From contig DAIOVL010000001.1 in NCBI GenBank assembly GCA_036759025.1, positions 123,539-187,538 of the forward strand: DNA of 64,000 nucleotides, in the 5' to 3' direction. Under the pieces are notes generated by a model. That model saw nothing but the letters and a program-made list of their open reading frames with translations, did no database searches and was not told where the DNA came from. The stretch comes from Bacteroidales bacterium (GTDB lineage Bacteria; Bacteroidota; Bacteroidia; Bacteroidales; VadinHA17). The position numbers and the translations under genes are program-made. Shown here piece by piece: positions 16,534 to 21,588 of this stretch (position 1 is the first letter of the stretch; the number at the start of each line of letters is the position of its first letter).

Positions 16534-17244
16534 ATGACCCGTTACCATGAGCTGTTAAAGCAGGATGTAAGGTTTGAGGAAGGTCTTAAAGCCTGTATGA
16601 ATTGTGGCGTATGTACAGCCATATGCCCGGCTGCCGAATTCTATGATTATGATCCGCGTAAAATTGTCGACCTGGTACAGTCAGGCAATGATGAAGGGAT
16701 AGAAAAGCTTCTGCGATCCGAAACCATCTGGTATTGTGGTGAATGCATGTCGTGCAAGACAAGATGCCCAAGGGGAAATACTCCGGCTTTTGTGGTTATG
16801 GCCCTGAGAACGCTTTCCCAGAAACTGGGCTTCTTCACGGAATCGGAGAAAGGCCGGCAGCAGTTTGCTATAAAAAGGACTGTCGGAGAGAATATTTTCA
16901 GGTACGGATACTGCGTTGCTACATATGCCGTAAGCCCTGAGATGCACCGTGAACAGGGACCCGTGTGGGAATATATAATCGAAAACACGAAAGACATTTA
17001 TGAAAGGCTGGGCGGTAATATAGATGAACTGGGAGAAGGACCTCTCAGAAAAATACCCGATGACGCCAGAGACGAGCTTAGAAAGATATTCGATGTTACC
17101 GGCGGAACCGACCTTTTTGATTCCATAGAAAAGCATTCGAAAATAAAGGCTAAAGAAATGGGACTCACCATCGATGATGAAGGGATTGATAATGAGTATT
17201 TCAATGAAGTTTTTAAAGCGAATAACAACAGGCATACACACTAA
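16534..17244 (+). CDS. Heterodisulfide reductase subunit C-like 4Fe-4S protein
   Basis: Two cluster motifs in HdrC spacing: CMNCGVCTAICP ... CGECMSCKTRCP. Confidence 0.75.
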   Translation: MTRYHELLKQDVRFEEGLKACMNCGVCTAICPAAEFYDYDPRKIVDLVQSGNDEGIEKLLRSETIWYCGECMSCKTRCPRGNTPAFVVMALRTLSQKLGFFTESEKGRQQFAIKRTVGENIFRYGYCVATYAVSPEMHREQGPVWEYIIENTKDIYERLGGNIDELGEGPLRKIPDDARDELRKIFDVTGGTDLFDSIEKHSKIKAKEMGLTIDDEGIDNEYFNEVFKANNNRHTH

Positions 17245-17265
17245 AGTTAAAAGTTGTCAACGGAC

Positions 17266-18327
17266 ATGAAAAGTGAAGGGAAAAAACGAATATGGGCTGA
17301 CTATCAGAAAGAAATTGCTGATGACCATTTCTTCTATGTAAGATCATGTATAAGACAGAGTTTTTTTCCTGGCTCAGAACAGTTCTTTCTTCATTTTATG
17401 AGAGAAGTGCTGGGAAAGGATGTGTATGAGAATCCTTCACATACTTCCTGTACCGGGATCGGTTATCATAGCGATATAGTGCCCCTGCGCACCATAATGG
17501 CAGTGGTAGCACGCCACTTTGCGCTTATGAAGGAGTCGGGTTATAAGAATATTGCAATATCCTGCGTCACTTCATTCGGGATATACACAGAGATCCTTGA
17601 GACTTGGAAACACTTTCCGAAAGAACTTGAGCAGACAAGGGAAGATCTTTTCAAAGCAACGGGAAGAGAATTTGATATACCGGAGAATGTAGCTCATACC
17701 AGCGATATCATTTATAAATTCAGCAATGAGATAGCCTCAAAGGCTAAATATCTTCTTGTAAACAAGCATACCGGATTGCCACTGAACGTGGTAGAACACA
17801 TTGGTTGCCATTATGCCAAGATGTTCCCGAAACATGGTGTGGGAGGAGCTGAATTTCCGCGTGTGCTGAGCGGGATGATCGAATCATGGGGAGGTAATGT
17901 TGTCGATTACCCGGAAAGAAGACACTGCTGCGGTTTCGGTTTCAGGCAGTATCTTGTCCAGGCCAACAGAGGTTATTCAATGTCGAATACAATAAAAAAA
18001 TTCGCTTCAATGAAGCCTTTTAATCCCGATCTGGTTCTAACCAACTGCCCGGGCTGCACAATGTTCATGGATAAGTGGCAGTATACTGCTAGGGAAATGG
18101 AGGGTACAGTGTACGGAAACAATGGAGAAGCAATACCAGTTCTCACTTACGAGGAACTTGCCGGACTGGTGATGGGTTATAATCCATGGGACCTCGGGCT
18201 CCAGTTCCATATGGTACAGTCGGAGCCACTCCTCAGAAAAATGGGTGTGGAATTTGACCCCGGTGATAAATTCAGGACTAAGGACGGGAAGCAGATGCCT
18301 GTACCGGCAGATCTTATTAATGTCTGA
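17266..18327 (+). CDS. Heterodisulfide reductase subunit B-like (CCG-domain) protein
   Basis: CCG-type cysteine pattern ...RRHCCGFG...LTNCPGC..., plus a degenerate N-terminal copy. The track ORF begins at TTG 17254; ATG 17266 is chosen here. Confidence 0.7.
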   Translation: MKSEGKKRIWADYQKEIADDHFFYVRSCIRQSFFPGSEQFFLHFMREVLGKDVYENPSHTSCTGIGYHSDIVPLRTIMAVVARHFALMKESGYKNIAISCVTSFGIYTEILETWKHFPKELEQTREDLFKATGREFDIPENVAHTSDIIYKFSNEIASKAKYLLVNKHTGLPLNVVEHIGCHYAKMFPKHGVGGAEFPRVLSGMIESWGGNVVDYPERRHCCGFGFRQYLVQANRGYSMSNTIKKFASMKPFNPDLVLTNCPGCTMFMDKWQYTAREMEGTVYGNNGEAIPVLTYEELAGLVMGYNPWDLGLQFHMVQSEPLLRKMGVEFDPGDKFRTKDGKQMPVPADLINV

Positions 18328-19357: not shown

Positions 19358-19358
19358 G

Positions 19359-19703
19359 ATGGAAAAATTCGGATTTACAATATTGAAAGCAAGGCATATT
19401 AACTACGATGCAAACGACAAAAGTGTTGCGGAATACATATATGAGAGAGAACCCACTTTCAGGGTCTGCATAGAATGTGGCTGTTGTGCTGCAACATGCA
19501 CAACAGGAAATTTTACCTCATTTAGTCTGAGGGAGATAAATATCCTTTTAAAGAGGGGTGAACTAGACAAAGTGAATGAGAATCTCAAAAAATGTATGCT
19601 CTGCGGAAAATGCACACTGGTTTGTCCGAGGGGAGTAAATACCAGGAATGTGATAACCCTGGCCCGTGAGGCTCTGAAAAACAATTTTAAAGATGCAGTT
19701 TGA
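19359..19703 (+). CDS. Small HdrC-like 2x[4Fe-4S] ferredoxin
   Basis: CIECGCCAATC ... CMLCGKCTLVCP. The ATG is 2 nt after the HdrA-like stop. Confidence 0.65.
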   Translation: MEKFGFTILKARHINYDANDKSVAEYIYEREPTFRVCIECGCCAATCTTGNFTSFSLREINILLKRGELDKVNENLKKCMLCGKCTLVCPRGVNTRNVITLAREALKNNFKDAV

Positions 19704-21588
19704 TCCATTTATCATACCATTCAACATAGGCCTCTATTTCATTCTGATTTATGCAGTCGTAAGGAGCGTGATATGGTTTCGCGGATTGTCACGTCCCGAC
19801 AAACTCAGGCTTCAGAGAGGTTTTTTCGGACGGTCATTTGGTCAGAGCATAAGGGAAATATTCATGGAATCCCTTCTTCACAGGAGAATTTTTAAAACCA
19901 ATCCCAGGCTGGGATATATGCATATGAGCCTGGCTTTTGGCTGGTTCCTTCTTATACTTTTCGGGACTCTTGAAGCTGACATTTTCGGAGAAAGACATCT
20001 TAACCCGCCTTACAAGGCTATTTTCTTCAAGTTCTTTCATCCCGATCATGGCAGATCAGGCATAGAAGCCGTTTGGGCATTTATGATGGATTTTATTCTC
20101 GCCTTCATATTATCGGGACTGCTACTGGCTATTATAAAAAGAATATGGTCGCGTGTTGTGGGTATGAAAAAAACTACAAGATTGAAACCACTCGACAAGA
20201 TAGCATTGCTCTCCCTCTGGTCGATATTTCCCAGCCGCCTCCTGGCCGAGAGTTTTACCAGCGGGGCCTACGGAACCGGAAGCTTCCTTACCGGGTCGCT
20301 CGGTTCATGGCTCTCTTCATTTCTTCCTGCCCACGAAATGGCATATCCCTTCTGGTGGCTTTATTCCCTGTCTCTAGGCACATTTTTTATCCTTCTGCCT
20401 GTAACAAGATATATGCACATCCCCTCGGAACTCTTCCTGATATTTGCGCGTAACTCAGGAATAAGAACGGGCGACAGGGCTGGGGCTTTCACCGAAATGC
20501 AGGTATATTCATGCTCATCATGCGGGATTTGTATCGATGTATGTCAGCTAAATTTTTCAACCGGGATAACGAGCATCCAGTCGGCTTATCTTTTAAAAGG
20601 TATCCGGAATAATGAAGATGTCAGCGATATTGCATTCAACTGCCTGATGTGTGGCCGCTGCGATCAGAATTGCCCTGTTGGCATCGAACTTACCCCCATC
20701 AGGATGATACAGAGAAGGGCAGGAGAGTCAGTCTCAGAGTCAAAGACCCTGTTAAAAAGATACTTTCCGGACAACCCGGTTGCACAGCCACTAAAAACTG
20801 AGACGGATCCAGCCTTCGATTTTCTCAAACCTGAAGAACCCCCGAAAGCAGATGTATTATACTTTGCAGGATGCATGACACATCTCACCCCTTCGGTTAA
20901 AAATGCAATGATCAGGATCCTTGAGGCTTCGGGGGTGAGGTATGAATTTATAGACAAAGAAGGTGGTGTATGCTGCGGAAGACCGCTTATGCTCGCCGGC
21001 CAGACAAAAGAAGCCAGGGAACTCATTAACTACAACTCTGAGCTTATCTGGAAATCCGGAGCTCACACTCTTGTCACCTCATGTCCGATATGCTACAAGG
21101 TGTTCAGGGAAAGCTATTACCTTGACGTGGAAGTCCAGCATCATTCCCAGTTCATCAAGGATCTGATTGACGAGGGAATACTGAAGCTGAATTTTATCAG
21201 AAAGAGGGTTAATTACCATACACCCTGCGATCTTGGAAGGGGATCAGGTGTCTATGATGAACCGAAAGATGTTTTAAGGCATGTGGTAAGGCTTCAGAAG
21301 ACAGAAGCCGACGATGAAAATGCTCCATGTTGCGGAGGAAGCCTTGGAAATATGAAGATAAATCATCATCAGCGACATCAGATAGCTGTCGATGCTGCGA
21401 AAATGCTTACCGTTAAAAATCCGGATATTCTTGCAACCTCCTGTCCTCTGTGCAAGAAAACCCTTGCTGCCGCGACAAGTACCAGGGTTGCCGATATAGC
21501 TGAAATAGTAGCTGATGCAATCGTTCCTGCCGATCCGGTGAAAAGATTTACCGATCCTTTACACAGGATGAAACAACCTGTTACCTGA
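19693..21588 (+). CDS. Membrane-anchored (Fe-S)-binding protein: N-terminal polytopic (NarI/DsrM/HdrE-like) domain fused to an HdrD/DsrK-like 4Fe-4S + double CCG domain
   Basis: About 260 aa with 5-6 TM segments and conserved His (YMHMS, RYMHIP). Then CSSCGICIDVC ... CLMCGRCDQNCP, then CCG-type motifs FAGCMTH, VCCGRPL, TSCPICYK, HTPCDLGRG, PCCGGSLG, TSCPLCKK. Confidence 0.75.
   Translation: MQFDPFIIPFNIGLYFILIYAVVRSVIWFRGLSRPDKLRLQRGFFGRSFGQSIREIFMESLLHRRIFKTNPRLGYMHMSLAFGWFLLILFGTLEADIFGERHLNPPYKAIFFKFFHPDHGRSGIEAVWAFMMDFILAFILSGLLLAIIKRIWSRVVGMKKTTRLKPLDKIALLSLWSIFPSRLLAESFTSGAYGTGSFLTGSLGSWLSSFLPAHEMAYPFWWLYSLSLGTFFILLPVTRYMHIPSELFLIFARNSGIRTGDRAGAFTEMQVYSCSSCGICIDVCQLNFSTGITSIQSAYLLKGIRNNEDVSDIAFNCLMCGRCDQNCPVGIELTPIRMIQRRAGESVSESKTLLKRYFPDNPVAQPLKTETDPAFDFLKPEEPPKADVLYFAGCMTHLTPSVKNAMIRILEASGVRYEFIDKEGGVCCGRPLMLAGQTKEARELINYNSELIWKSGAHTLVTSCPICYKVFRESYYLDVEVQHHSQFIKDLIDEGILKLNFIRKRVNYHTPCDLGRGSGVYDEPKDVLRHVVRLQKTEADDENAPCCGGSLGNMKINHHQRHQIAVDAAKMLTVKNPDILATSCPLCKKTLAAATSTRVADIAEIVADAIVPADPVKRFTDPLHRMKQPVT

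What the first reader, a model, noticed from the sequence alone, without database searches (positions are those of the whole stretch)
16534..21588. Five-gene Hdr-like operon (C-B-shortA-smallC-membrane D/K) resembling sulfur-oxidiser sHdr order but ending in a membrane-fused HdrD/DsrK-like subunit
Seen: the genes are tightly coupled. They are HdrC-like; HdrB-like (CCG motif HCCGFG...NCPGC); a 345-aa HdrA-like protein (FAD motif plus HCVGSRD...CSKLCC) whose start overlaps the previous stop; a 114-aa HdrC-like ferredoxin starting 2 nt after the stop; and a 631-aa protein overlapping by 11 nt. The 631-aa protein has 5-6 N-terminal TM helices with conserved His. These are followed by two 4Fe-4S motifs and two CCG-type cysteine sets.

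Established: the methanogen HdrABC/HdrDE and the DsrMK families share these modules. The sHdr loci of sulfur oxidisers have the order hdrC1-hdrB1-hdrA-hyp-hdrC2-hdrB2, with a short HdrA. DsrK acts on the DsrC cysteine arm.

Inference: this could be a quinone-linked, membrane-anchored Hdr-like complex acting on a protein-bound or low-molecular-weight (per)sulfide or disulfide, possibly the TusE/DsrC-like protein at 1957-2268. No lipoate-binding protein gene is in the window, so it is not a canonical sHdr locus.
Basis: partly seen in the sequence, partly recalled or inferred. Interest (0 to 1): 0.7.

Follow-up and report, generated by a model that had tools for sequence, protein, structure and literature searches.

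The report
Membrane-anchored Hdr-like operon of Bacteroidia
Five tightly packed genes encode an iron-sulfur/flavin enzyme complex related to heterodisulfide reductases and bolted to a heme-containing membrane subunit; it probably moves electrons between a thiol- or sulfur-carrying substrate and the membrane quinone pool, in an arrangement found only in anaerobic Bacteroidia and not described before.

Summary
Window 16534-21588 (+) holds five translationally coupled genes:
- HdrC1-like (g1)
- HdrB1-like (g2)
- short HdrA-like (g3)
- a 114-aa HdrC-like ferredoxin (g4)
- a 631-aa fusion of five TM helices, two cubane motifs and two complete CCG motifs (g5)

The same order occurs in every complete locus of about 145 related loci. 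All named ones are Bacteroidia, including the cultured Tenuifilaceae CYCD and Marinilabiliaceae JC017. Flanking genes differ between lineages, and a Bacteroidetes-type promoter motif precedes g1 in 93% of loci.

g5 folds like mycobacterial EtfD/EMO. It keeps the two proximal heme b histidines, but an invariant Tyr replaces the distal-heme His. Unlike EMOs, it keeps all 10 cluster cysteines.

g2 shares the unusual motifs of sulfur-oxidiser sHdrB1 (SCT, C-x-TSFG, CCGFGFR). However, g1-g3 are only 26-47% identical to canonical sHdr.

There is no lipoate-binding protein, Etf, sHdrH or sulfur transferase in cis. One divergent family member does have an LbpA-like gene directly downstream. The three nearest informative out-group membrane fusions all sit beside lipoyl-protein genes.

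Best reading: a menaquinone-linked, sHdr-like thiol or sulfane-sulfur oxidoreductase. The substrate is unproven; a lipoyl protein is the leading candidate. This is a new variant of a known kind.

The parts
16499..16506 (+). Bacteroidetes-type -7 promoter motif TAnnTTTG (TATTTTTG), 28 nt upstream of the g1 ATG
   Evidence: Direct reading and regex. The motif lies within 100 nt upstream of g1 in 108 of 116 related loci, against 3.3% of random 100-nt windows. There is no copy on the + strand inside the operon. Function as a promoter is inferred, not shown.
16534..17244 (+). g1: HdrC1-like subunit, 236 aa, two [4Fe-4S] motifs (C21/24/27/31 and C68/71/74/78) plus an invariant C127
   Evidence: Fer4_8 7e-11 and HdrC 4.6e-27, though far below the NCBIfam cut-off. 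It is 47% identical to sHdrC1 over 90 aa (7e-30), against 4e-9 for sHdrC2. All 9 Cys are invariant in 53 loci.
17266..18327 (+). g2: HdrB1-type subunit (353 aa from the ATG at 17266; the ORF opens at TTG 17254). The C-terminal, proximal non-cubane motif is complete (C185, C225, C226, C265, C268, with H186). The N-terminal, distal site is reduced to three Cys (C32, C66, C104).
   Evidence: HdrB 6e-40; the Pfam CCG model hits the C-terminal half only. PDB HdrB 1.7e-29. The alignment with sHdrB1 shows shared SCT, C-x-TSFG-x-Y and CCGFGFR motifs. All eight Cys plus H63, H72 and H186 are invariant in 55 loci.
18320..19357 (+). g3: short HdrA-like flavoprotein, 345 aa, with an FAD motif and one [4Fe-4S] site (C162, C175, C179, C180). 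It has no ferredoxin or MvhD-binding domains.
   Evidence: HdrA2 1.4e-73. Full-length match to the sHdrA structure 6TJR (3.5e-58) and a core match to methanogen HdrA (2.8e-62). The four Cys are invariant in 56 loci.
19359..19703 (+). g4: 114-aa HdrC-like ferredoxin with two clusters (C37/40/43/47 and C79/82/85/89). Proposed connector between g3 and g5.
   Evidence: Fer4_9 and Fer4_8; HdrC TIGR03290 3e-9. All 8 Cys are invariant in 59 loci. It always overlaps or abuts g5, with gaps of -14 to +22 nt in 103 loci. It is kept in the three-gene variant L152. The connector role is inferred.
19693..21588 (+). g5: 631-aa membrane subunit with the EtfD/EMO/HdrDE fold. It has 5 TM helices and one heme b site (H77, H242). 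Two cubane [4Fe-4S] motifs follow (C274-C284, C317-C327), then two complete CCG motifs (C394, C427, C428, C464, C467; C512, C546, C547, C584, C587).
   Evidence: Pfam CCG 1.7e-25 (two stretches) and Fer4_8. The AF2 model has pLDDT 85.3. The only full-length Foldseek hit is M. smegmatis EtfD 9OJN (E 1.2e-18, TM 0.61). H77 aligns with the EtfD heme ligand H78. The distal-heme position is an invariant Y224, where out-groups have His.

Best explanation
The five genes form one operon encoding a self-contained, membrane-anchored heterodisulfide-reductase-like complex that is characteristic of Bacteroidia.

Proposed wiring:
1. g2 is an HdrB1-type subunit. It has an intact proximal non-cubane [4Fe-4S] site, the HdrB-type proton-relay His, and a three-Cys distal site. 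I take it to be the substrate site for a thiol, persulfide or disulfide group.
2. g1 (two cubane clusters) passes electrons between g2 and the FAD/[4Fe-4S] of the short HdrA g3.
3. The small HdrC-like ferredoxin g4 carries them to g5.
4. Four Fe-S clusters and a single proximal heme b in g5 connect to menaquinone at the cytoplasmic face of the membrane.

Net reaction proposed: oxidation of a protein-bound dithiol or sulfane-sulfur carrier, with reduction of menaquinone. A lipoyl protein of the LbpA/GcvH type is the best candidate carrier. The menaquinol would then be re-oxidised, for example by fumarate reductase. In effect this is a third, streamlined arrangement of the sHdr idea. The soluble C2B2 pair of type I, or the B3-EtfAB-EMO set of type II, is replaced by a ferredoxin plus an EMO-like fusion protein.

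Shown here: gene content, operon structure, cofactor-motif conservation, the fold of g5, and the phyletic pattern.

Inferred: complex formation, the order of electron transfer, the quinone link (by homology to EtfD/EMO), the direction, and the substrate.

My confidence by step: about 0.85 for 'Hdr-like membrane complex', about 0.7 for 'quinone-linked', and about 0.35 for 'lipoyl-protein or sulfane-sulfur substrate oxidised'.
For: Operon and conservation:
- The order g1-g5 is present in 106 of 145 loci, and every exception is truncated or a partial match.
- It is present in distant members that have unrelated flanks.
- Intergenic gaps are tiny and the promoter motif is conserved.

Cofactor sites: every cluster-binding Cys of g1-g5 is invariant.

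g5 resembles EtfD/EMO:
- The only full-length PDB fold match is EtfD.
- The sequence profile hits EtfD at 1.3e-34 and aligns H77 with the heme ligand H78.
- EtfD and EMO are experimentally shown (methyl)menaquinone reductases (PMC13083937; bioRxiv 10.64898/2026.08.18.745454).

g5 keeps all 10 non-cubane Cys, as catalytic HDRs do. EMOs have lost some and block the substrate pocket.

g1-g3 resemble sHdrC1B1A in order, in sizes and in B1-specific motifs.

Link to lipoyl proteins:
- In the divergent member L154/L155 the module is followed after 29 nt by a GCV_H protein carrying the LbpA-type E(T/S)GKWVG motif.
- The three nearest informative out-group NarI-HdrD fusions (P0216, P0171, P0236) lie next to GCV_H proteins and a lipoate ligase. 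One of them also sits among DsrE, DsrH and TusA genes.

The core is modular. A cyanobacterial plasmid carries a closely related C1B1A core (40-52% identical to g1-g3). There it is followed by soluble C2B2 and an SQR-family flavoprotein.

Thermodynamics (established knowledge): dithiol/disulfide couples lie near -250 to -300 mV and MK/MKH2 near -74 mV. This favours thiol oxidation, and a single-heme anchor offers no obvious way to use the membrane potential.
Against: - No lipoyl protein, lipoate ligase, TusA, DsrE3, sHdrH or Etf gene lies beside the module in the window or in about 145 family loci. The only exception is one divergent lineage.
- g1-g3 are only 26-47% identical to canonical sHdr. 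g3 is as close to methanogen HdrA as to sHdrA.
- A Rikenellaceae MAG carries only A-Fd-D without C1B1. The B1 site is therefore not always needed next to g5.
- g5's own 10-Cys site could be the catalytic one.
- Pfam NarI does not hit g5.
- There are no expression, biochemical or genetic data.
- Direction and substrate are inference only.
Confidence: 0.5

Rival explanations
1. The same complex runs in the opposite direction. It would be a menaquinol-dependent reductase, like HdrDE or DsrMK, reducing a disulfide, polysulfide, persulfide or protein trisulfide as an electron sink for a fermenter.
For: - g5 has the two complete non-cubane motifs of the reductases HdrD and HdrB.
- HdrDE and DsrMK(JOP) work in the reductive direction.
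- The organism is a strict anaerobe with hydrogenases.
- A type III SQR / DUF1641 / TusE / DsrE2 cluster lies 12 kb away.
Against: - Menaquinol (about -74 mV) is a poor donor for ordinary disulfides.
- The family lacks the distal heme ligand, so it has no evident transmembrane route to draw on the proton-motive force.
- The sulfur cluster is not conserved next to the operon.
- No DsrC with two Cys and no dsrAB is present in the window.
Confidence: 0.2
2. A flavin-based electron-bifurcating or confurcating device. The HdrA FAD would split electrons from the g2 substrate between menaquinone (the high-potential branch, via g4 and g5) and a low-potential carrier such as ferredoxin that feeds the hydrogenases.
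For: - HdrA is the classic bifurcating flavoprotein, and g3's core is about as similar to methanogen HdrA as to sHdrA.
- L154 has an extra 83-aa ferredoxin gene between A and the small C.
- The window encodes a group 4 [NiFe] hydrogenase and a HydABC-type [FeFe] hydrogenase.
Against: - g3 lacks the ferredoxin-type and N-terminal domains that carry the low-potential branch in HdrA.
- Only two electron paths leave the flavin in the five-gene set.
- No ferredoxin partner gene is conserved.
Confidence: 0.1
3. g5 is only an electron wire, as in EMO/EtfD, and the complex feeds electrons into the quinone pool from a donor that is not a thiol. HdrA-Fd would play the part that EtfAB plays for EMO.
For: - The fold of g5 matches EtfD.
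- In EMOs the non-cubane clusters only transfer electrons.
- A three-gene A-Fd-D variant exists without C1B1.
Against: - g3 has the [4Fe-4S] motif CVGSRD where thioredoxin-reductase-type enzymes bind NAD(P)H, so no obvious soluble donor site remains.
- g2 keeps an intact proximal cluster and the HdrB-type His.
- g5 keeps all 10 Cys, unlike EMOs.
- No Etf or dehydrogenase gene is linked.
Confidence: 0.12
4. A GlcF, LutA, GlpC or SdhE-type CCG system that oxidises an organic acid or glycerol-3-phosphate.
For: - g5 gives sub-threshold hits to LdhH (92 bits), GlpC (87) and GlcF (44).
- LutA is the second-best fold hit, for the CCG half only.
- Some out-group loci contain GlcD/GlcF-like genes.
Against: - g2 scores 137 bits with HdrB, against 53 with SdhE and 31 with LdhH.
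- No GlcD, LutB, LutC, GlpA, GlpB or SdhA-type dehydrogenase gene is in or next to the operon in any family locus.
Confidence: 0.03

Closest known systems
Type I sHdr of sulfur oxidisers (shdrC1B1AHC2B2 with LbpA; Hyphomicrobium denitrificans type, locus L066)
   Same: - The gene order C1-B1-short A is the same.
- g1 matches C1 better than C2 (7e-30 vs 4e-9).
- g2 shares B1-specific motifs: SCT in place of CC, C-x-TSFG in place of CxxC, and CCGFGFR.
- g3 matches the sHdrA structure 6TJR over its full length.
   Different: - There is no sHdrH, no soluble B2, no LbpA, no lipoate-maturation genes and no TusA or DsrE3 in cis.
- Identity is only 26-47%.
- g2 has CxxC in its C-terminal motif, where sHdrB1 has a single Cys.
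- The module ends in a membrane subunit.
- The hosts are anaerobic fermentative Bacteroidia, not sulfur lithotrophs.
Type II sHdr (shdrC1B1AHB3-etfAB-emo; Chloroflexota, Actinobacteriota, Bacillota; PMC11094781)
   Same: A C1B1A core is combined with an EMO-type membrane protein, which is proposed to pass electrons to menaquinone.
   Different: - No sHdrH, no B3 and no EtfAB. A 114-aa ferredoxin sits in their place.
- g5 keeps all 10 non-cubane Cys.
- No type II sequences could be fetched, so the phylogenetic distance is untested.
EtfD / EMO (M. smegmatis 9OJN; Syntrophus aciditrophicus EMO)
   Same: - The three-domain architecture is the same: 5 TM helices, two cubane clusters and an NCB domain.
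- EtfD is the only full-length fold match.
- The proximal heme ligands are conserved (H77/H242 against H78/H241 in MsEtfD and H87/H251 in SaEMO).
   Different: - There is no Etf partner.
- The distal-heme His that is conserved in EMOs is an invariant Tyr here.
- The NCB domain has the full 10-Cys set of catalytic HDRs. EMOs instead have a [3Fe-4S] or [4Fe-5S] distal cluster.
- Structural-alignment identity is 16%.
Methanogen HdrDE and HdrABC
   Same: - The HdrB, HdrC and HdrA homologies are the best NCBIfam and PDB sequence hits for g1-g3.
- g5 corresponds to a fusion of HdrE and HdrD.
   Different: - All scores are far below the equivalog cut-offs (for example 137 vs 450 bits for HdrB).
- HdrA lacks its ferredoxin domains.
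- The host is bacterial and has no CoM or CoB metabolism.
- HdrE is a separate, di-heme subunit.
DsrMK(JOP)
   Same: A membrane NarI-type module is coupled to an HdrD-like catalytic module that acts on a protein-bound sulfur substrate. g2's 'one intact cluster plus conserved extra Cys' recalls DsrK.
   Different: - DsrK has a single non-cubane cluster, whereas g5 has two complete motifs.
- The DsrK model scores 71 bits against a cut-off of 400.
- There is no dsrAB, dsrJOP or two-Cys DsrC.
Uncharacterised C1-B1-A-C2-B2-SQR-like cluster on a Picosynechococcus sp. PCC 7003 plasmid (NZ_CP016476)
   Same: These are the closest annotated relatives of g1, g2 and g3 found (52%, 40% and 43% identity). 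The B1 motifs are the same.
   Different: It ends in soluble C2B2 and an SQR-family flavoprotein instead of ferredoxin plus membrane fusion. It is not characterised either.

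Membership tests
sHdr type I | Syntenic shdrC1-B1-A-H-C2-B2 set (criterion of PMC11094781) | tested here: not met
   C1, B1 and A equivalents are present. There is no sHdrH and no soluble B2, and g4 is only a truncated C-like ferredoxin.
sHdr type I / II | Lipoate-binding protein LbpA and lipoate-assembly genes linked to the cluster | tested here: not met
   A GCV_H HMM finds nothing in the 64-kb window or in about 145 family loci. The only exception is the divergent member L154/L155. The rest of the genome could not be examined.
sHdr type I / II | Accompanying sulfur transferases (TusA, DsrE3, rhodanese) | tested here: not met
   There is no TusA. A DsrE2-like and a TusE-like gene lie 12 kb away on the other strand, and this linkage is not conserved.
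sHdr type I / II | Short HdrA (about 350 aa, FAD plus one [4Fe-4S]) and a B1-type subunit with non-canonical N-terminal motifs | tested here: met
   g3 aligns with 6TJR over residues 8-338. g2 aligns with sHdrB1 and shares SCT, C-x-TSFG and CCGFGFR.
sHdr type II | shdrC1B1AHB3 plus etfAB in one cluster (criterion of PMC11094781) | tested here: not met
   There is no H, B3 or Etf gene in the window operon or in any family locus.
EMO / EtfD | NarI-like 5-TM domain, HdrC-like di-cubane domain and NCB domain in one chain | tested here: met
   AF2 model; Foldseek full-length match to 9OJN; motif conservation.
EMO / EtfD | Three conserved heme-ligand His (two proximal, one distal) | tested here: not met
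   The proximal pair H77/H242 is invariant. The distal position is an invariant Y224, where out-groups have His.
EMO / EtfD | Works with EtfAB (genomic or functional link) | tested here: not met
   No Etf genes lie in the flanks of any family locus. A functional link cannot be tested here.
EMO / EtfD | Binds heme b and reduces (methyl)menaquinone | not testable with these tools
   This needs spectroscopy and enzyme assays.
Methanogen HdrABC / HdrDE | Scores above the NCBIfam equivalog cut-offs; long HdrA with ferredoxin domains | tested here: not met
   HdrC 95 bits vs cut-off 350; HdrB 137 vs 450; HdrA2 248 vs 1100. g3 has 345 aa with a single cluster motif.
DsrMK | Catalytic subunit with a single non-cubane cluster; link to dsrC and dsrAB | tested here: not met
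   g5 has two complete CCG sets. The DsrK model scores 71 bits vs cut-off 400. There is no dsrAB, and the DsrC-family gene has only the terminal Cys.
GlcF / LutA / GlpC / SdhE-type CCG proteins | Best similarity to these models and an adjacent substrate dehydrogenase | tested here: not met
   g2 scores HdrB 137 bits, SdhE 53 and LdhH 31. All hits for g5 are sub-threshold. No dehydrogenase partner gene is present.

The most novel reading that the evidence does not exclude
The Bacteroidia module and its nearest out-groups would together reveal an uncharacterised class of respiratory enzymes: membrane HdrE-HdrD fusions with a full catalytic 10-Cys site that oxidise, or reduce, a protein-bound lipoyl or persulfide group directly against the menaquinone pool. 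In Bacteroidia this unit has captured an sHdrC1B1A-type core. That would give abundant 'fermentative' sediment and digester Bacteroidia a hidden, quinone-coupled sulfur or dithiol-oxidising branch of anaerobic respiration, for example with fumarate as acceptor.
Probability: 0.3. Interest if true: 0.8.

Novelty: new variant of a known kind. Interest (0 to 1): 0.62.

Why it matters
Hdr-like modules are a recurring solution for difficult thiol and sulfur redox chemistry. They occur in methanogenesis, sulfate reduction, sulfur oxidation and syntrophy.

This operon joins two parts that are known separately: the sHdr-type C1B1A core and an EtfD/EMO-type membrane wire. It joins them without the usual intermediaries, H, B2/B3 and EtfAB.

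Its hosts are Tenuifilaceae, Marinilabiliaceae and 'Rikenellaceae'/vadinHA17-type Bacteroidales. These bacteria are abundant in anaerobic digesters, fens and lake and marine sediments, and are normally modelled as plain fermenters.

If the complex couples a thiol, lipoyl or sulfane-sulfur couple to menaquinone, it would add a respiratory, energy-relevant link between sulfur or dithiol metabolism and the quinone pool in these organisms. It would also offer a simpler system for studying sHdrB1-type catalysis.

Two cultured carriers (Tenuifilaceae bacterium CYCD and Marinilabiliaceae bacterium JC017) make this directly testable.

The side observation that NarI-HdrD fusions repeatedly sit beside lipoyl-protein and lipoate-ligase genes suggests a wider, unstudied enzyme class.

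Tried and rejected
1. Pfam NarI (PF02665) on g5 gave no hit at E <= 0.01. The membrane domain was instead assigned by the AF2 model and Foldseek.

2. TusE/DsrC at 1957-2268 as the partner was rejected. The SQR-DUF1641-TusE-DsrE2 cluster is near the operon only in a few close relatives that share the whole neighbourhood by descent. It is absent from distant members.

3. A search for LbpA/GcvH and TusA in the window and in family flanks, using local HMMs, found nothing. Positive controls were found.

4. A search for any conserved accessory gene in the flanks found only convergent purL, a small lipoprotein without a Pfam match, and ordinary neighbours.

5. The metagenome scan with a g2+sHdrB1 alignment was meant to reach type II sHdr and intermediates. 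It returned only relatives that are at least 65% identical. It served for synteny statistics but not for phylogeny.

7. Ten literature searches found no description of this module. Absence from the held library is not proof of absence.

8. Supplementary tables of PMC11094781, wanted for the phyla that carry sHdr, are not held.

9. No Rfam family or tRNA is in the window. The sigma-70 promoter and terminator scan was uninformative, as expected for Bacteroidetes.

Full report
**1. Observation**

The five ORFs are real and co-directional.

| Gene | Coordinates | Length |
|---|---|---|
| g1 | 16534-17244 | 236 aa |
| g2 | ORF 17254-18327 | 353 aa from ATG 17266 |
| g3 | 18320-19357 | 345 aa |
| g4 | 19359-19703 | 114 aa |
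| g5 | 19693-21588 | 631 aa |

- The g2 start is most likely the ATG at 17266, because relatives begin MK-EGKKRIW.
- g2 and g3 overlap by 8 nt. One base separates g3 and g4. g4 and g5 overlap by 11 nt.
  - g1: Fer4_8; HdrC 4.6e-27.
  - g2: CCG; HdrB 6e-40.
  - g3: Pyr_redox_2; HdrA2 1.4e-73.
  - g4: a two-cluster ferredoxin; HdrC 3e-9.
  - g5: Fer4_8 plus two CCG stretches (1.7e-25).
- All NCBIfam scores are far below the equivalog cut-offs, so none of the five is an orthologue of a named enzyme.

**2. It is a conserved operon, restricted to Bacteroidia as far as names go**

- g5 has thousands of close relatives, and every named one is a Bacteroidales, Bacteroidia or Bacteroidota MAG.
- In GTDB species representatives, 62 loci were found, all Bacteroidales or Bacteroidota MAGs. 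All of them that are not cut by a contig end or only partly matched keep the order g1-g5.
- A search of 1.84 billion cluster representatives gives only about 30 clusters of full-length relatives (36-52% identity). Scores then drop sharply.
- A profile of those relatives again retrieves only Bacteroidia names: Tenuifilaceae bacterium CYCD (a complete genome), Salinivirgaceae, Breznakibacter, Marinilabiliaceae bacterium JC017 and a Rikenellaceae MAG.
- The five-gene set is intact in these distant members, while the flanking genes are entirely different.
- With 80 further metagenome loci, 106 of 145 loci show g1-g2-g3-g4-g5. All others are truncated or partial matches, and no alternative order occurs.
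- Median intergenic gaps are 8, 1, 1 and -11 nt.
- The Bacteroidetes -7 promoter motif TAnnTTTG lies within 100 nt upstream of g1 in 108 of 116 loci, against 3.3% of random windows.
- In the window the motif is at 16499-16506, and none occurs inside the operon.
- No accessory gene is conserved in the flanks. The recurrent neighbours are convergent purL, a small lipoprotein and ordinary genes.

**3. The membrane subunit g5**

*Conserved residues.* Across the family the following are invariant:
- H63, H77 and H242;
- the eight cubane Cys;
- all ten CCG Cys (C394, C427, C428, C464, C467; C512, C546, C547, C584, C587).

*Fold.*
- An AlphaFold2 model (pLDDT 85.3, pTM 0.79) shows five TM helices followed by the Fe-S domains.
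- Its only full-length match in the PDB is M. smegmatis EtfD, 9OJN (E 1.2e-18, TM 0.61). Next come LutA and HdrB, for the CCG half only.
- A family profile hits EtfD at 1.3e-34. In a weak N-terminal segment it aligns H77 with EtfD H78.

*Heme sites.*
- EtfD binds one heme b through H78 and H241 and reduces menaquinone (PMC13083937).
- The Syntrophus EMO uses H87 and H251 for the proximal heme and H233 for the distal twin heme. All three His are reported as conserved in EMOs (bioRxiv 10.64898/2026.08.18.745454).
- In g5 the residue 18 positions before H242 is an invariant Tyr (Y224). The nearest out-groups have His there.
- The family therefore most likely binds only the proximal heme. It would exchange electrons with quinone near the cytoplasmic face, without a transmembrane electron path. 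This is inference.

*Non-cubane clusters.*
- EMOs have lost one or more non-cubane ligands and block the HDR substrate pocket.
- g5 keeps the full 10-Cys set of catalytic HDRs.
- DsrK has only one such cluster.

**4. The soluble core g1-g3 and g4**

I fetched a canonical type I sHdr locus, L066: DsrE3-C1-B1-A-H-C2-B2-hyp-LbpA, with TusA nearby.

*Pairwise comparison.*

| Window protein | Best match | Other matches |
|---|---|---|
| g1 | sHdrC1, 47% over 90 aa, 7e-30 | sHdrC2, 4e-9 |
| g2 | sHdrB1, 26%, 3e-30 | methanogen HdrB, 28%, 1.6e-27; sHdrB2, 3e-10 |
| g3 | sHdrA, 32%, 6e-63 | – |

- In the PDB, g3 matches sHdrA 6TJR over its full length (200.6 bits). Its core is just as close to methanogen HdrA (214.1 bits).

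*Motifs shared by g2 and sHdrB1.* The distal, N-terminal site has SCT instead of CC and C-x-TSFG instead of CxxC. The proximal site reads CCGFGFR.

*Sites in g2.*
- The proximal site is complete (C185, C225, C226, C265, C268) and keeps the His next to the first Cys (H186).
- The distal site keeps three invariant Cys (C32, C66, C104) and two invariant His.
- The same Cys-to-Thr change turns the distal cluster of EtfD into a linear [3Fe-4S]. What g2 binds there is unknown.

*Cofactor sites in g3 and g4.* g3 keeps its four cluster Cys, and g4 keeps its eight.

*No NAD(P)H site.* g3 carries the cluster motif CVGSRD where thioredoxin-reductase-type enzymes bind NAD(P)H. No pyridine-nucleotide site is expected (established knowledge of HdrA).

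**5. Clues to the partner or substrate**

- The window has no GCV_H/LbpA, TusA or Etf gene, and neither do about 145 family loci.
- One divergent but clear family member (P0146; loci L154 and L155; 36-49% identity for all five proteins) has this order: C1-B1-A-Fd(83 aa)-c-D. A 138-aa GCV_H protein follows after 29 nt.
- That protein carries the LbpA-type motif E(T/S)GKWVG. E. coli GcvH has ESVKAASD at the same place.
- The nearest out-group relatives of g5 are NarI-HdrD fusions with all 10 Cys and a distal His. All three informative loci place them beside lipoyl-protein genes:

| Out-group protein | Locus | Neighbourhood |
|---|---|---|
| P0216 | L068 | DsrE/DsrH (two sets) - TusA - fusion - GCV_H - radical SAM - LplA - radical SAM - TusA |
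| P0171 | L070 | two GCV_H genes, LplA and a GlcD/GlcF-like pair nearby |
| P0236 | L158 | GCV_H - fusion - LplA |

- A Rikenellaceae MAG (L152) has only A-Fd-D. g3-g4-g5 is therefore a separable unit.
- A Picosynechococcus sp. PCC 7003 plasmid carries C1-B1-A (52%, 40% and 43% identical to g1-g3, and 71%, 72% and 60% identical to the L154 proteins). These are followed by soluble C2-B2 (B2 is 32% identical to sHdrB2) and an SQR-family flavoprotein.
- The C1B1A core is thus modular. It is combined either with soluble C2B2 or with a ferredoxin plus the membrane fusion.

**6. The TusE idea**

- Window 1439-4199 (- strand) encodes four proteins:
  - a type III SQR (621 bits, above the cut-off of 525);
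  - a DUF1641 protein;
  - a one-Cys TusE/DsrC-family protein;
  - a DsrE2-like protein.
- This cluster lies within 10 kb of the operon in only 3 close relatives (4 counting one that shows the SQR gene alone), and these share the whole neighbourhood. It is not there in distant members.
- I therefore do not treat it as a partner. It does show that the organism handles sulfane sulfur.

**7. Mechanism**

The best-supported reading is a linear electron chain:

g2 substrate site -> g1 -> g3 (FAD and [4Fe-4S]) -> g4 -> g5 (two non-cubane clusters, two cubane clusters, heme b) -> menaquinone

- Thermodynamics favour oxidation of a dithiol or sulfane-sulfur carrier with reduction of MK. A single-heme anchor gives no obvious way to drive the reverse reaction.
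- The lipoyl-protein links of L154 and of the out-groups make an LbpA/GcvH-type protein the leading candidate substrate.
- Which of the two potential catalytic sites (g2 or the 10-Cys site of g5) does what is open.
- Rivals are listed separately: the reductive direction, flavin-based bifurcation, a pure electron wire, and an organic-acid dehydrogenase.

**8. Comparison and novelty**

- The system works like an sHdr joined to an EMO.
- It fails the membership criteria of type I sHdr, type II sHdr, EMO/EtfD, DsrMK and methanogen Hdr (see the table).
- Ten full-text searches found no description of it.
- I rate it a new variant of a known kind. It is of moderate-to-high interest, because cultured carriers make it testable and because it implies quinone-coupled thiol or sulfur chemistry in abundant 'fermentative' Bacteroidia.

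**9. Context of the window**

The organism is a strict anaerobe with rich hydrogen metabolism. The window encodes:
- a group 4 [NiFe] hydrogenase with Mrp-type modules;
- AsrAB- or sulfhydrogenase-like subunits;
- Rex;
- HypFDE;
- a HydABC-type [FeFe] hydrogenase.

Noticed in passing
window 1439-4199 (- strand): A four-gene sulfur cluster. It encodes a type III sulfide:quinone reductase (NF049943, 621 bits, above the cut-off of 525), a DUF1641 protein, a TusE/DsrC-family protein with only the terminal Cys (...PKPASCV), and a DsrE2-like protein. It is linked to the Hdr-like operon only in a few close relatives.
   Followed up: partly
window 39353-51670 (- strand): A group 4 membrane-bound [NiFe] hydrogenase locus with Mrp-type antiporter modules. 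The large subunit at 45727-47043 keeps the RICGICSTSH and DPCYCCTER motifs. A cNMP-binding protein and AsrA/AsrB- or sulfhydrogenase beta/gamma-like subunits follow at 49804-51670.
   Followed up: partly
window 51824-57053 and 60403-63844 (+ strand): A Rex redox repressor, HypF, HypD and HypE maturation genes, and a HydABC-type [FeFe] hydrogenase (NuoF-like at 60883-62043; group A6 HydA at 62063-63844, 890 bits, above the cut-off).
   Followed up: no
L068 7878-9809; L070 8001-9863; L158 8001-10007: The out-group NarI-HdrD fusion proteins have all 10 CCG Cys and a distal His. Each sits beside GCV_H-type lipoyl proteins and lipoate ligase genes. In L068 the fusion lies within a DsrE/DsrH/TusA/radical-SAM cluster. 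This may be an unstudied lipoyl-protein:quinone oxidoreductase class.
   Followed up: partly
L154 13-5827 and L155 1132-6997: A divergent version of the module has an extra 83-aa ferredoxin between A and the small C. An LbpA-like GCV_H gene lies 29 nt downstream, followed (in L154) by DUF169 and TrmO-like genes. Its C1/B1/A are 60-72% identical to those on a cyanobacterial plasmid. The taxon is unknown.
   Followed up: partly
L152 7612-10785: A Rikenellaceae MAG carries only HdrA-like, ferredoxin and membrane fusion genes, without C1B1. Its HdrA has CVCSQN instead of CVGSRD.
   Followed up: no
L161 8242-13982 (Picosynechococcus sp. PCC 7003 plasmid NZ_CP016476): A cyanobacterial plasmid carries a soluble C1-B1-A-C2-B2 cluster plus an SQR-family flavoprotein. 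There is no sHdrH and no LbpA within 9 kb. It appears to be uncharacterised.
   Followed up: partly
L156 2089-3688: In Marinilabiliaceae bacterium JC017, a HisKA_3 sensor kinase and a GerE-type response regulator lie directly upstream of the five-gene module. They may be a dedicated regulator pair.
   Followed up: no
L063 1-2102: Tenuifilaceae bacterium CYCD has, 5 kb upstream of the module, a long (656 aa) HdrA-like protein with Fer4 domains and a 357-aa Fer4 protein. This is a second, different Hdr-like system.
   Followed up: no
alignment A4, proteins P0237, P0243, P0261: Longer EMO-like relatives (711-716 aa) carry an insertion in the loop between TM4 and TM5. In P0237 and P0243 it contains a CxxCH motif (CAECH, CAVCH), which hints at a covalently bound heme c.
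   Followed up: no
window 21581-21588; related loci such as L040 11836-12600: In the window the convergent purL stop overlaps the end of g5 by 8 nt. Most relatives have an extra small lipoprotein gene (about 185 aa, no Pfam match) between g5 and purL. The window lacks it.
   Followed up: partly
window 9869-13564 (+ strand): A 1231-aa secreted protein with PQQ-like beta-propeller repeats and a C-terminal malectin domain. It is inserted, together with a TonB-dependent receptor gene, between neighbourhood genes that are adjacent in relatives.
   Followed up: no
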